A stretch of DNA of 32,000 nucleotides from Edaphobacter aggregans (lineage in GTDB: Bacteria; Acidobacteriota; Terriglobia; Terriglobales; Acidobacteriaceae): NCBI RefSeq assembly GCF_003945235.1, contig NZ_RSDW01000001.1:150001-182000 (forward strand), in the 5' to 3' direction. Both the position numbers and the translations under genes were made by a program. Shown piece by piece: positions 17,703-19,600 of this stretch. How positions within the stretch are numbered: the stretch's first letter is position 1; each line of letters begins with the position of its first letter. The notes beneath the pieces are model-generated. The model was not told where the DNA came from. It saw only the letters and a list, made by a program, of their open reading frames with translations, and searched no databases.

Positions 17703-17921
17703 GATCTTCCCAAAGATGGGATTATAGCCTTACCATCCTATCGCCAATGGATTGTTTGAGAGATCGGCTGCTATGTGTCTGAGAGAAGAAGTGGTGATGA
17801 AAATTGTCACTTGACACTAACAGTCAGTATGGAGTGACCGGCGCCGATGCGCTGATCGTGGTTTAGGCTGTGTGTTTATTAGGGCACGCAGTTCAGAGCC
17901 ACAGGCGGAAGGGAGCCGGTC

Positions 17922-19049
17922 ATGAAGGAGAAGGTACGATTTATAGGTTTGGATGTCCATGCCGAGACCATCGCCGTAGCGATAGCCGAACCGGATGGTG
18001 AAGTACGGAGTCTGGGAACGATTCCGAACCGTAGCGAGTCGCTCCGCAAGCTGGTTAGGAAGCTTGGTCCAGCAGAGAAGTTGAGAGCCTGTTATGAGGC
18101 AGGACCGACGGGCTACGTGGTGTATTGGCAACTGACAGAACTGGGTGTACCGTGCGAGGTGGTAGCGCCTACTCTGGTACCGGTTAAAGCGGGTGATCGA
18201 GTAAAGACGGATCGGCGAGATGCGGAGAAGTTGGCACGCTGCTACCGATCTGGAGATCTGACAGCGGTATGGGTTCCGGACGAAGGTTCCGAGGCCTTAC
18301 GCGATCTCGTGCGTGCCCGCGAAGCAGCCAAACAGGATCAGATGCGAGCGCGGCATCGGTTGAGCAAGTTTCTTCTTCGCTCCGGCCAGCGTCCACCAAC
18401 CGGAGTTCGACCATGGACACGCCCCTATCTGATCTGGATCGCGCAGCTACGTTTCACACAGATCGCCCAGGAATCCACGCGACAGGATTACCTGCACGAG
18501 GTCGAGCACATGCGGGAACGGGTAGCGCGTCTGGAGCAAGCCATCACGGAAGCGGTGAAGCTGGCCTCCCCCGCGTTGCAGCAAGTCATTAACGATCTGC
18601 AGGCACTGCGCGGTATCGCGGATATCTCAGCTGTAACCATTGCGGCCGAGCTGGGCCAGGTATCCTGTTTTCACAGTGCCCGGCAACTGATGGGCTATTG
18701 CGGTGCTGTGCCCAGCGAAGACTCCAGTGGCAAGCGAACCAGACGCGGTGGCATCACTAAAACCGGCAACGCGCATTTGCGACGAATCGTTGTCGAAGCA
18801 GCCTGGAGCTATCGTCGTCCTCCATGTATCTGGTACGGACTGCGCAGACGACAGGAGAGCATCTCAGAAGAGGCGAAAGAGATTGCGTGGAAGGCGCAAC
18901 ACCGGCTGCATAAGCGGTATATGAGGCTGGGTGCAGCCGGCAAGGACCAGAGGAAGATTGCTGTTGCAATTGCTCATGAACTGCTGGGCTTCATCTGGGC
19001 TATTGGAGCCAGAGCGGAGACGATCGTCAGGCATCGAGTTGCAGCCTGA
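17922..19049 (+). CDS. IS110-family (DEDD/RuvC-like) transposase
   Basis: 375 aa. The N-terminus is MKEKVRFIGLDVHAETIAVAIAE. C-terminal conserved blocks are LQALRGIADISAVTIAAELG, SARQLMGYCGAVPSEDSSG and GGITKTGNAHLRRIVVEAAW. An RBS GGAAGGGAG lies upstream. Confidence 0.92.
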   Translation: MKEKVRFIGLDVHAETIAVAIAEPDGEVRSLGTIPNRSESLRKLVRKLGPAEKLRACYEAGPTGYVVYWQLTELGVPCEVVAPTLVPVKAGDRVKTDRRDAEKLARCYRSGDLTAVWVPDEGSEALRDLVRAREAAKQDQMRARHRLSKFLLRSGQRPPTGVRPWTRPYLIWIAQLRFTQIAQESTRQDYLHEVEHMRERVARLEQAITEAVKLASPALQQVINDLQALRGIADISAVTIAAELGQVSCFHSARQLMGYCGAVPSEDSSGKRTRRGGITKTGNAHLRRIVVEAAWSYRRPPCIWYGLRRRQESISEEAKEIAWKAQHRLHKRYMRLGAAGKDQRKIAVAIAHELLGFIWAIGARAETIVRHRVAA

Positions 19050-19393
19050 AAAGAACAACAGCAAAGACAACAACTTTCCTACAACGAAAAAGCAACAACA
19101 ATGCAATCGATGAACGGTGCCACCCATCTCGAGCACAGAGCCAGCAGCAGCCGAGGCAAGCACGAAGGGAGAATCCTCGTTTGCCCTATGCGACAGGCTC
19201 GCCCGGACTCGCGATAACAGTCAGAGGCAGCTCCCGACGGATCATGATTATGCGGTTCCGACCCGCGAATATGAGACTGATCAATCGTCGCTCAAATCTA
19301 CCCAGACTGCTGCTCGCTCTGTCATCGGGAAAAGAAAACGCAAACCACCACACAATCCCACAGATCTCGCCCAGTTGACACGGTCACTCCATA
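19050..19393 (+). ncRNA. Candidate guide (bridge/seek-type) RNA region in the 3' end of IS-B
   Basis: TAACAGTCAG at 19215-19224 is identical to the 10 nt of host DNA that abut the IS left end (17818-17827, including TCAG). A stem-capable segment lies at about 19157-19190. No transcript boundaries can be defined from sequence alone. Confidence 0.35.
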
Positions 19394-19397
19394 TCAG

Positions 19398-19600
19398 GGC
19401 ATAGCACTCCTTGAGCTATTCAGAGCGGCCTGTATCTTCGGCAAGTTGCCGTAAAACCGGCTTTCCGGAGAAGTGGTTCCCGAAATTGCGGTTCCGGTTG
19501 CAAGTGTCCGATATGCCGACTATTCGGCCAAGTGCTCTGCGTTCCATGCTCGATGAGCGCATTGGCGATTATGTACTCATCGAGATCGTCCACGAGCCCG
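19398..19600 (+). repeat. Composite intergenic repeat (a-b-U-d), right flank of IS-B
   Basis: GCACTCCTTGAGCTATTCAGAGC (19404-19426). GCAAGTTGCCGTAAAACCGGCTTTCCGG (19441-19468). GATATGCCGACTATTCGGCCAAGTGC...GAGCGCATTGGCGATTATGTACTCATCGAGATCG (19509-19590). Collinear with copy 23653-23775. Confidence 0.7.

What the first reader, a model, noticed from the sequence alone, without database searches (positions are those of the whole stretch)
17811..19426. Intact IS110-family element inserted precisely into a copy of the local intergenic repeat, with a TCAG core on both sides
The element has perfect 13-bp terminal inverted repeats (TATGGAGTGACCG at 17828-17840, CGGTCACTCCATA at 19381-19393). TCAG directly flanks both ends. 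Removing the element and one TCAG gives ...CACTTGACACTAACAGTCAGGGCATAGCACTCCTTGAGCTATTCAGAGC. This is collinear with uninterrupted repeat copies at 23630-23675 (...TGTCAACTGTTGCCACAGGGCAACGCACTCATTGAGCTATTCAGAGC) and 3273-3315. The IS therefore split a pre-existing repeat just upstream of its a module. Targeting of REP-like repeats is known for IS110/IS1111-type elements. Here both the target family and the IS appear uncharacterised.
Basis: partly seen in the sequence, partly recalled or inferred. Interest (0 to 1): 0.7.

Follow-up and report, generated by a model that had tools for sequence, protein, structure and literature searches.

The report
RNA-guided insertion sequence in a soil-bacterium repeat
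This is a 1,574-bp mobile element of the known IS110/IS1111 kind that carries its own guide RNA and has inserted into a short repeat common in Acidobacteriaceae; it is a well-supported new member of a known class, not a new kind of system.

Summary
A 375-aa IS110-family transposase gene is flanked by perfect 13-bp inverted repeats, with TCAG outside each, inside a copy of a short repeat.

The boundaries are wrong. Of 120 uninterrupted repeat copies from metagenomes, 107 have the spacing of ...AACAG|GSCAAT... and none contains TCAG. The insertion is therefore 1,574 bp (17822-19395). It has the canonical IS1111 geometry: AG core, 5-nt left extension TCAGT, 12-bp subterminal repeats, 3-nt right extension ATC. 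The left TCAG belongs to the element, because sister lineages carry TCAT or TCAC there across independent insertions.

The 3' non-coding region (19135-19321) encodes a bridge RNA/seekRNA:
- It is as conserved as codon second positions.
- Its fold shows compensatory changes at 25 of 41 pairs in seven relatives with 44-52% identical transposases.
- One loop matches both halves of the target, and a G/C guide variant tracks the target variant in 70 independent insertions (p = 9e-12).
- A second loop matches the element's own ends.

The closest named relative is ISEc45 (IS1111 group). At least 298 relatives occur in Acidobacteriaceae genomes.

This copy has a private mutation in its donor guide, so it may be impaired.

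Verdict: new member of a known kind; modest interest.

The parts
17807..17823 (+). Left half of the interrupted target repeat (TCACTTGACACTAACAG). Its last two bases, AG (17822-17823), are the left copy of the core.
   Evidence: Matches the left consensus TCAAYTGnYGnnAACAG of 73 insertion sites and of uninterrupted copies.
17822..19395 (+). The insertion sequence, 1,574 bp. One copy of the AG core is assigned to the left end, following the convention of Siddiquee et al. The phase is ambiguous within the repeated CAG.
   Evidence: The difference between the occupied site and uninterrupted repeats is 1,574 bp.
17824..17828 (+). Left terminal extension TCAGT. With the AG core it makes the 7-nt left extension typical of IS1111 elements.
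   Evidence: AG lies 7 and 6 nt before the ATG-initial subterminal repeat in the window copy and in six relatives. The fourth base varies with the element's lineage, not with the site.
17829..17840 (+). Left subterminal inverted repeat ATGGAGTGACCG. It reads as 13 bp if the preceding T is counted.
   Evidence: Relatives also have repeats that start with ATG and end with CAT.
17922..19049 (+). Transposase/recombinase gene, 375 aa. It has D11, E59, D97 and D100, and the motif GAVPSEDSSG at residues 261-270.
   Evidence: Pfam PF01548 and PF02371. NCBIfam NF033542. Sixty of 65 distinct copies encode a 375-aa protein. Residue positions.
19135..19321 (+). Bridge RNA / seekRNA gene. A closing stem (19136-19151 with 19306-19321) encloses a target-binding arm and a donor-binding arm.
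   Evidence: Column conservation is 0.961 against 0.755 at third codon positions and 0.71-0.75 in the flanking spacers. [quoted passage not shown] In those relatives 93% of cells pair and 25 of 41 pairs show compensatory change, with 0 of 500 shuffles as good.
19180..19188 (+). Target-binding loop, 5' side: TTTGCCCTA. [quoted passage not shown]
   Evidence: Guide position 5 (G/C) against target position +2 (C/G) gives 43/3/3/21, Fisher p = 9e-12. Per-copy listing. Relatives.
19214..19223 (+). Target-binding loop, 3' side: ATAACAGTCA. It has the same sense as the left target (tAAC), the AG core and the first 3 nt of the left extension (TCA).
   Evidence: Exact 9-nt match to the left junction. 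The equivalent loop in five relatives matches 6-9 nt of their own, different left junctions.
19245..19251 (+). Donor-binding loop, 5' side: TGATTAT. UGA is complementary to TCA, the first bases of the left extension. This assignment is weak.
   Evidence: Only 3-4 nt match, but the state changes along with the element's own end across relatives: TCA with UGA, ACA with UGU, ACC with GGU. No single match is significant.
19267..19277 (+). Donor-binding loop, 3' side: GAATATGAGAC. All 49 other distinct versions read GAATATCAGAC, which is the right-end sequence AT + ATC + AG. The G at 19273 is private to this copy.
   Evidence: alignment. Relatives carry CATATCAG, CATGAGAG or ATAAGA, each matching its own right end.
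19375..19380 (+). TTGACA, a -35-like hexamer directly upstream of the right subterminal repeat. In a circular junction it would lie 18 nt before CAGTAT of the left end.
   Evidence: Conserved in all copies although the spacer upstream of it is variable. TTGACA, TTGACT, CTTGAC, TTGAAA or CTTGAC occupies the same position in six relatives. Junction sequence. That it acts as a promoter is inferred.
19381..19397 (+). Right subterminal repeat CGGTCACTCCAT (19381-19392), right extension ATC (19393-19395), and the right copy of the AG core (19396-19397).
19398..19415 (+). Right half of the interrupted target repeat (GGCATAGCACTCCTTGAG).
   Evidence: Matches the right consensus GSCAAtGCrCTCATyGAg.
23628..23665 (+). 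Uninterrupted copy of the target repeat (an empty-site analogue). Another lies at 9941-9971.
   Evidence: nhmmer E = 5e-8 and 2e-7. Alignment.

Best explanation
The element is a 1,574-bp insertion sequence of the IS110 family, IS1111 group, in the clade of ISEc45. It encodes a DEDD recombinase. Downstream of that gene it encodes a structured RNA of about 187 nt that works as a bridge RNA (seekRNA).

One internal loop of the RNA reads the target. [quoted passage not shown] The AG is shared by both pairings and acts as the core where strands are exchanged. A second loop reads the element's own joined ends: the right end AT-ATC-AG, and more weakly the left extension TCA.

The element most likely excises as a circle in which the ends abut as ...CCAT-ATC-AG-TCAGT-ATGG.... 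That junction places TTGACA 18 nt before CAGTAT and so could form a promoter for the recombinase and the RNA. The circle then recombines into the centre of a roughly 36-nt interspersed repeat of Acidobacteriaceae without duplicating target bases.

Shown here:
- family membership
- the boundaries
- the conserved RNA and its covarying fold
- guide-target covariation
- guide matches to the right end

Inferred:
- that the RNA is made and bound by the protein
- the circular intermediate and its junction promoter
- the exact cleavage positions
For: Family: Pfam and NCBIfam hits. The nearest named relative is the ISEc45 family, 44% identical over 96% of the protein. Durrant et al. list ISEc45 as 'RE / IS1111' in their supplementary table.

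Boundaries. The same geometry, AG + 5 nt + ATG... / ...CAT + 3 nt + A(G/A), is seen in six relatives. It equals the 7 + 3 extensions reported for IS1111 elements (PMC11187229).

RNA: conservation profile. Covariance-model hits directly 3' of the transposase gene in seven relatives, E = 2e-17 to 1e-4. In those, 93.1% of cells pair against 71.5% in shuffles and 38-47% in slid controls, and 25 of 41 pairs are compensatory.

Guides: G/C covariation with the target in 70 insertions, p = 9e-12. Loops of relatives match their own, different junctions. The top-strand complement lies 5' of the bottom-strand match, as reported for IS1111 seekRNAs.
Against: - No expression or biochemical data exist for this element.
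- Within the Acidobacteriaceae clade the RNA is too conserved to show any compensatory pair. The covariation comes from an alignment fitted to the model, which leans towards the structure.
- The single-sequence fold is not exceptional (z = -1.6).
- The 5' side of the donor loop matches only 3-4 nt.
- In two relatives (L204, L205) the right junction carries an extra AG that I did not explain.
- Rfam 15 reports no family at gathering score in this window.
- The transposase is 375 aa, longer than the 330-350 aa quoted for IS1111 transposases, and only about 24% identical to the weak Klebsiella plasmid hits, which I assume but did not verify are IS5075-like.
Confidence: 0.85

Rival explanations
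1. The element is the 1,566 bp bounded by the 13-bp terminal repeats, and TCAG is a 4-bp target duplication or core present once in the empty site.
For: TCAG directly abuts both 13-bp repeats in the window and in 47 of 73 distinct insertions. The RNA's 3' target guide ATAACAGTCA(G) would match an AACAGTCAG target over its full length. In L070 the sequence after the right end resumes after a single TCAG.
Against: No uninterrupted repeat contains AACAGTCAGG: 0 in 576 kb, and 0 of 120 metagenome copies have the required 11-nt spacer. The reconstruction aligns with a 4-nt insertion. The left TCAN varies with the element's lineage (TCAT, TCAC) while the right stays TCAG. Relatives have unrelated 5-nt and 3-nt extensions around a shared AG.
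Confidence: 0.04
2. The conserved flanks are not a target. They are the outer ends of a longer mobile element that includes the repeat halves.
For: Flank conservation extends to about -17 and +18, further than the roughly 7-nt guide matches.
Against: The same 36-nt unit is abundant without any IS. Flank positions are 60-95% conserved against 98-100% for the IS ends. Only the 41% of units with an AACAG centre resemble the occupied sites, which is what guide selection predicts.
Confidence: 0.03
3. The conserved 3' block acts as a protein-coding ORF (19117-19404, 95 aa) or as a DNA binding site, not as an RNA.
For: An ORF spans the block in the window and in several sister copies.
Against: Compensatory base-pair changes occur in seven relatives whose primary sequence differs. 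The ORF runs past the element's end into the flank. The loops track target and donor sequences. The NCBIfam model itself is named 'RNA-guided transposase'.
Confidence: 0.04
4. The window copy is structurally complete but functionally impaired. It could move only with RNA or protein supplied by sister copies. This does not exclude the best explanation.
For: It has a private C-to-G at 19273 in the donor guide (ATATCAG to ATATGAG), next to the core, where all 49 other distinct versions agree. It also has a private extra G at 19167-19169. It has five private substitutions at otherwise invariant protein positions, the second highest of 61. Core-proximal mismatches are poorly tolerated in IS621 (PMC11208160).
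Against: The copy sits on a long branch (nearest relative 94% identical), so private changes are expected. The ORF, ends, target guides and -35 hexamer are intact. Mismatch tolerance has not been measured for this clade.
Confidence: 0.3

Closest known systems
ISEc45 (ISfinder IS110 family, IS1111 group), the nearest named relative
   Same: The transposase is 44% identical over 96% of its length. It has a short 5' end, a 3' non-coding region of about 250 nt, subterminal repeats that start with ATG and end with CAT, and a TTGACT hexamer before the right repeat. The covariance model built here detects a homologous RNA just after its transposase gene (23.8 bits, E = 1e-4). Durrant et al. predict its bridge RNA in the right end.
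   Different: The host is Enterobacteriaceae plasmids, and the copy examined is inserted in an IS66-family region rather than the Acidobacteriaceae repeat. Its extensions differ (ATGAT / AAG). Its target-binding arm did not align to the model.
IS1111-family elements with characterised seekRNAs (ISEc11, ISPa11, ISKpn4, ISPst6; Siddiquee et al. 2024, PMC11187229)
   Same: Subterminal repeats of 11-13 bp. Terminal extensions of 7 and 3 bp. The long non-coding region lies downstream of the transposase gene. The RNA carries a top-strand complement 5' of a bottom-strand match, and the two matches overlap in the target. There is no true target duplication. ISPa11 also targets REP sequences. Natural redirection by guide changes is reported.
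   Different: The protein is 375 aa against 330-350 aa. It has GAVP....SG rather than the GL-P....S/TG motif. The phylum and the target are different. The conserved RNA here is about 187 nt with a second arm that matches the donor, whereas the minimal seekRNAs are 70-100 nt.
IS621 / IS110-group bridge RNA (Durrant et al. 2024, PMC11208160; Hiraizumi et al. 2024, PMC11208158)
   Same: A DEDD recombinase plus one RNA with two internal loops, one for the target and one for the donor. Each loop reads both strands around a shared core dinucleotide. Some guide bases match the recombination product rather than the substrate ('handshake' guides).
   Different: In IS621 the RNA lies in the left end, the guide order is reversed, the core is CT, and the subterminal repeats are only 2-3 bp. 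The proteins are only distantly related (PDB 8WT6 E = 2e-8 over about 120 residues).
REP-targeting IS110-family elements (ISPpu9, ISPpu10, ISPa11, IS621)
   Same: Orientation- and site-specific insertion into a short interspersed extragenic repeat (PMC12288879 abstract; PMC11187229).
   Different: The Acidobacteriaceae repeat showed no supported hairpin. The putative stem TTGCC/GGCAA does not covary across 73 sites.

Membership tests
IS110 family (DEDD transposase insertion sequences) | Transposase with an N-terminal DEDD/RuvC-like domain (PF01548) and a C-terminal PF02371 domain | tested here: met
   PF01548 E = 4e-18 and PF02371 E = 2e-19. NF033542 scored 239 bits against a cut-off of 140.
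IS110 family (DEDD transposase insertion sequences) | Catalytic D-E-D-D residues and the G--P----SG motif | tested here: met
   D11 (GLDVH), E59 (CYEAG), D97 and D100 (KTDRRDA), and GAVPSEDSSG at residues 261-270. Assigned from the motifs described in PMC11187229 and PMC11208158, not from a structure.
IS1111 group/family | [quoted passage not shown] | tested here: met
   A 12-bp repeat ATGGAGTGACCG / CGGTCACTCCAT (13 bp with the adjacent T/A), set inside the ends.
IS1111 group/family | Asymmetric terminal extensions of 7 bp on the left and 3 bp on the right, with no target duplication | tested here: met
   AG+TCAGT on the left and ATC on the right, derived from uninterrupted repeats and shared by six relatives. 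No orthologous empty site or circle junction was available.
IS1111 group/family | The long non-coding region lies downstream of the transposase gene | tested here: met
   The 3' non-coding region is about 346 nt (19050-19395) against about 100 nt at the 5' end (17822-17921).
IS1111 group/family | Transposase related over its full length to that of IS1111, and placed in the IS1111 branch of the tree | tested here: inconclusive
   No IS1111 reference sequence was compared and no tree was built. The indirect evidence is that the nearest named relative, ISEc45, is labelled IS1111 in Durrant et al.'s table. Identity to the weak Klebsiella plasmid hits, which I assume are IS5075-like, is only about 24%. 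The length of 375 aa exceeds the quoted 330-350 aa.
IS1111 group/family | A circular intermediate with abutted ends that creates a promoter | not testable with these tools
   Sequence only: TTGACA, then 18 nt, then CAGTAT across the predicted junction. The -35 hexamer is conserved in relatives.
Bridge RNA / seekRNA systems | A conserved structured RNA encoded in the long non-coding end | tested here: met
   Conservation profile. Covariance-model hits in seven relatives. 25 of 41 pairs are compensatory, and 0 of 500 shuffles are as good.
Bridge RNA / seekRNA systems | Loop segments complementary to both strands of the target, overlapping at the core, and covarying with the target | tested here: met
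   AGGSCAA and (t)AACAG overlap at AG. G/C covariation gives p = 9e-12. Relatives.
Bridge RNA / seekRNA systems | Loop segments complementary to the donor (the element's ends) | tested here: inconclusive
   The 3' side is clear: 7-8 nt matches with three covarying states (ATC, GAG, AAG). The 5' side matches only 3-4 nt.
Bridge RNA / seekRNA systems | The RNA is transcribed, binds the recombinase and is required for movement | not testable with these tools
   No expression or biochemical data are available.
REP-type extragenic repeats (the target) | Short, abundant, non-coding interspersed unit | tested here: met
   A unit of about 36 nt. Seven full or partial copies lie in the 32-kb window, counting the interrupted one. 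No conservation outside the unit, and no frame with long ORFs.
REP-type extragenic repeats (the target) | Imperfect palindrome able to form a stem-loop | tested here: not met
   The candidate stem TTGCC/GGCAA forms 2-3 of 5 pairs on average and shows no covariation across 73 sites. For this reason I call it REP-like only.

The most novel reading that the evidence does not exclude
In this ISEc45-like clade, the bottom-strand target guide always runs through the AG core into the first 2-3 bases of the element's own left extension (window ATAAC-AG-TCA; relatives CCT-AG-ACC, TTT-AG-TCA). It therefore pairs better with the left junction of an integrated copy, which is also the integration product, than with the naked target. 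This could mean that a single loop serves both excision and integration, acting as a built-in 'handshake' on the opposite guide from the one described for IS621. That would be a mechanistic variant of bridge recombination. The clade would also supply naturally reprogrammed guide/target pairs (GCCC with GGGC, GGCC with GGCC) from an unexplored phylum.
Probability: 0.3. Interest if true: 0.5.

Novelty: new member of a known kind. Interest (0 to 1): 0.3.

Why it matters
The finding adds a well-documented, multi-copy clade of RNA-guided recombinases from Acidobacteriaceae, with at least 298 relatives in representative genomes. For this clade the work defines the ends, the core, the guide RNA and a natural guide/target switch.

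This is useful raw material for people mining bridge recombinases. It also helps in annotating Acidobacteriaceae genomes, where both the element and its 36-nt target repeat are currently unlabelled.

It shows as well how the common 'terminal repeat plus 4-bp duplication' reading misplaces the ends of IS1111-type elements.

It does not change understanding of the mechanism.

Tried and rejected
1. Exact-protein look-ups of the transposase and of the neighbouring LysR-type gene, to find the source genome or an orthologous empty site. Neither protein is on record, so no true empty-site allele was obtained. I used uninterrupted family members instead.

2. Rfam at gathering thresholds found nothing in the window.

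3. RNAalifold on 50 clade members gave no compensatory pairs and a consensus that swallowed the guide segments. I replaced it with a hand-drawn structure, which I then tested on distant relatives.

4. The idea that the target forms a hairpin (TTGCC-AACAG-GGCAA). Rejected: no covariation across 73 sites.

5. The idea that the repeat is a fragment of PIN/VapC toxin genes, because it reads ...IANALIE... and its variable positions fall on third codon positions. Rejected: stop codons lie just upstream in most copies, and no frame has long ORFs.

6. Covariation between the fourth base of the left extension (G/T/C) and an RNA base. None was consistent.

7. Explaining the extra right-end fragments in L043 and L070 as nested self-insertion at the guide-encoding DNA. 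Neither phasing fitted cleanly, so this is left open.

8. A literature search for ISEc45 gave only resistance-plasmid surveys.
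Full report
**1. What is in the sequence**

- They enclose one long ORF, 17922-19049 on the + strand, 375 aa.
- The ORF carries the two Pfam domains of IS110-family transposases.
- It passes NCBI's equivalog model 'IS110 family RNA-guided transposase' at 239 bits against a cut-off of 140.
- D11, E59, D97, D100 and a G-x-x-P-x4-S-G motif are present.
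- A perfect 13-bp inverted pair within 2 kb is expected about once per 32 kb by chance (my arithmetic). The repeat alone therefore proves nothing; its conservation in other genomes is the evidence.

**2. Relatives**

- A scan of one genome per species found 298 stretches encoding relatives. The best 80 (82-94% amino-acid identity) all come from Acidobacteriaceae and their allies: Granulicella, Tunturiibacter, Terracidiphilus and many soil and peat MAGs. Several genomes hold multiple copies.
- The source genome itself is not in the collections.
- In about 75 copies the homology runs from the same first base to the same last base.
- The flanks share a consensus: TCAAYTGnYGnnAACAG on the left and GSCAAtGCrCTCATyGAg on the right. 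It is seen in 73 distinct sites.

**3. Where the element really ends**

Uninterrupted members of the repeat read ...AACAG|GSCAAT....
- In 576 kb of fetched loci plus the window there were five such sites and none with AACAGTCAGG.
- I ran a deliberately neutral metagenome scan, TCAAYTGNNG-N{4,14}-GSCAATGCRCTCATYGA. AACAG was the commonest centre, at 49 of 120.
Removing 1,574 bp gives a gap-free match.

The fourth base of the left 'TCAG' is inherited with the element. It is TCAT in 14 and TCAC in 6 distinct insertions, while the right side is TCAG in all 73.

The layout is therefore:
- target ...AAC
- AG (core)
- TCAGT (left extension)
- ATGGAGTGACCG ... CGGTCACTCCAT (subterminal repeats)
- ATC (right extension)
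- AG (core)
- GGC... target

Six relatives with transposases 44-52% identical have the same layout, with different extension sequences around the same AG. This is the '7 bp left, 3 bp right, no duplication' geometry that Siddiquee et al. give for IS1111 elements. They also note that reported 4-bp duplications come from mis-assigned ends (PMC11187229).

**4. The guide RNA**

- The 3' non-coding region holds a block, 19135-19321, whose columns are as conserved as second codon positions: 0.961 against 0.971. Third codon positions and the spacers on either side are at 0.71-0.76.
- Inside the clade the block is too conserved to show covariation, and the single-sequence fold is unremarkable.
- I therefore drew a structure by hand: a closing stem, a target arm with two stems and an internal loop, and a donor arm with three stems and an internal loop.
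- I built a covariance model from it and searched seven distant relatives taken from plasmids.
- All seven have a hit directly after the transposase gene, with E = 2e-17 to 1e-4. ISEc45 is among them.
- On those seven sequences alone, 93.1% of cells pair, against 71.5% in shuffles and 38-47% when the partners are slid. Twenty-five of 41 pairs show changes on both sides, and 0 of 500 shuffles do as well.
- Caveat: that alignment was fitted to the model, which leans towards the structure.

**5. What the loops read**

*Target loop, 5' side.* It reads YTYGSCCTA. Its reverse complement, AGGSCAA, is the core plus the right target half.
- Copies with GCCC sit next to GGGC and copies with GGCC sit next to GGCC.
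- The counts are 21/3/3/43, Fisher p = 9e-12.
- Each insertion is an independent choice of site, although the number of independent guide switches is small.

*Target loop, 3' side.* It reads ATAACAGTCA. This has the same sense as the left target, the AG core and the first three bases of the left extension.
- The two target matches overlap at AG.
- In relatives the same loop reads CCTAGACC, CTTTAGTCA or ACTAGAC, each matching its own left junction over 6-9 nt.

*Donor loop, 3' side.* It reads (A/C)ATATCAG here, CATGAGAG in the Azospirillum and Paracoccus elements, and ATAAGA in ISEc45. Each matches its own right end, extension and core.

*Donor loop, 5' side.* It matches only 3-4 nt of the left extension. 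I treat that assignment as tentative.

**6. Junction promoter (inferred)**

TTGACA sits immediately before the right subterminal repeat. It is conserved there although the spacer upstream of it is not. Six relatives have a TTGAC-type hexamer in the same place. Joining the ends puts it 18 nt ahead of CAGTAT. This matches the junction promoters described for both families.

**7. Classification**

- The nearest named element is ISEc45, at 44% identity. It shares the architecture.
- Durrant et al. list ISEc45 as IS1111 group with a bridge RNA in the right end.
- The solved IS621 and ISCro4 proteins are only distant matches.
- I did not build a tree with IS1111 itself, so placement in the subgroup rests on architecture plus this indirect link.

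**8. The target**

- The repeat is a unit of about 36 nt with no conservation outside it and no coding frame.
- Seven full or partial copies lie in the window, counting the interrupted one.
- It is not demonstrably palindromic, so 'REP-like' is a loose label.
- I found no description of it. A 2012 survey only notes that IS110-family genes occur in acidobacterial genomes (PMC3469429).

**9. State of this copy**

- The ORF, both ends, the target guides and the -35 hexamer are intact.
- The RNA has two private changes at positions invariant in all 49 other distinct versions. One is C to G at 19273 in the donor guide, next to the core. The other is an extra G at 19167-19169.
- The protein has five private substitutions at otherwise invariant sites.
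- Because the copy sits on a long branch (closest relative 94% identical), this suggests reduced activity but does not show it.

**10. Verdict**

The ends and the 'TCAG core' are mis-assigned. This is a new member of a known kind.

Noticed in passing
L021:1282-2905, L025 and L056 (equivalent positions): In three genomes a second IS110-family element of about 1.63 kb sits inside the left subterminal repeat of this IS. It encodes a 459-aa protein with PF01548 and PF02371, and has a long 5' non-coding region. It is inserted at TATGG-AG-TGACCGG, with AG on both sides. The three composites lie in three different repeat sites. The second element's 5' non-coding region contains TATGGAG followed by CCGGTG, which looks like guides against that site. 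An IS110-type element may therefore specifically target the end of this IS1111-type element.
   Followed up: partly
L043:4469-4699 and L070:4449-4610: Directly after a complete copy there is a second, partial right end. In L070 it starts just after the target guide (…AGGCAGC) and in L043 about 50 nt earlier. Each runs to CCATATCAG and is followed by a normal right target half. Possible causes are self-targeting of the guide-encoding DNA or integration of a mini-circle. Neither phasing fitted cleanly.
   Followed up: partly
L031 and L071 (Tunturiibacter psychrotolerans X4BP1, about 33 kb apart, opposite orientation): Two copies share an identical 50-nt left flank but have different right flanks. 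This suggests an inversion or duplication mediated by the IS copies.
   Followed up: no
window 3373-11077 and 19439-19534: Other families of short direct repeats lie between small ORFs. Examples are GAAGTTGCCGAAAACCCCGTTTT (7 copies) and AAGTCGCATTTTCGGAAAGTTC (5 copies). They often contain small palindromes such as CGGCAAGTTGCCG. They are distinct from the IS target unit, though adjacent to it at 19439-19534.
   Followed up: no
window 19548-19570 (-), 7910-7925 (-), 12895-12914 (-): A variant of the target repeat has the centre AAATC and reads CGCCAAT in place of GSCAAT (…AAATCGCCAATGCGCTCATCGAG). It occurs in the opposite orientation close to the insertion. With the interrupted unit it brackets a roughly 190-bp stretch, like inverted ends of a composite repeat. 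None of the occupied sites has this centre.
   Followed up: partly
PLSDB plasmid collection (record not listed): One plasmid record holds a match at 90-95% amino-acid identity to the transposase. It did not appear among the listed rows, so it is probably a partial match. This could mean the clade also occurs on a plasmid.
   Followed up: no
L204 and L205, right junctions: In these two relatives the right end reads CAT-GAG-AG-AG/AA… with one more AG than the guide matches predict. Either the right extension is 5 nt in that sub-clade or these copies sit in imperfect sites.
   Followed up: no
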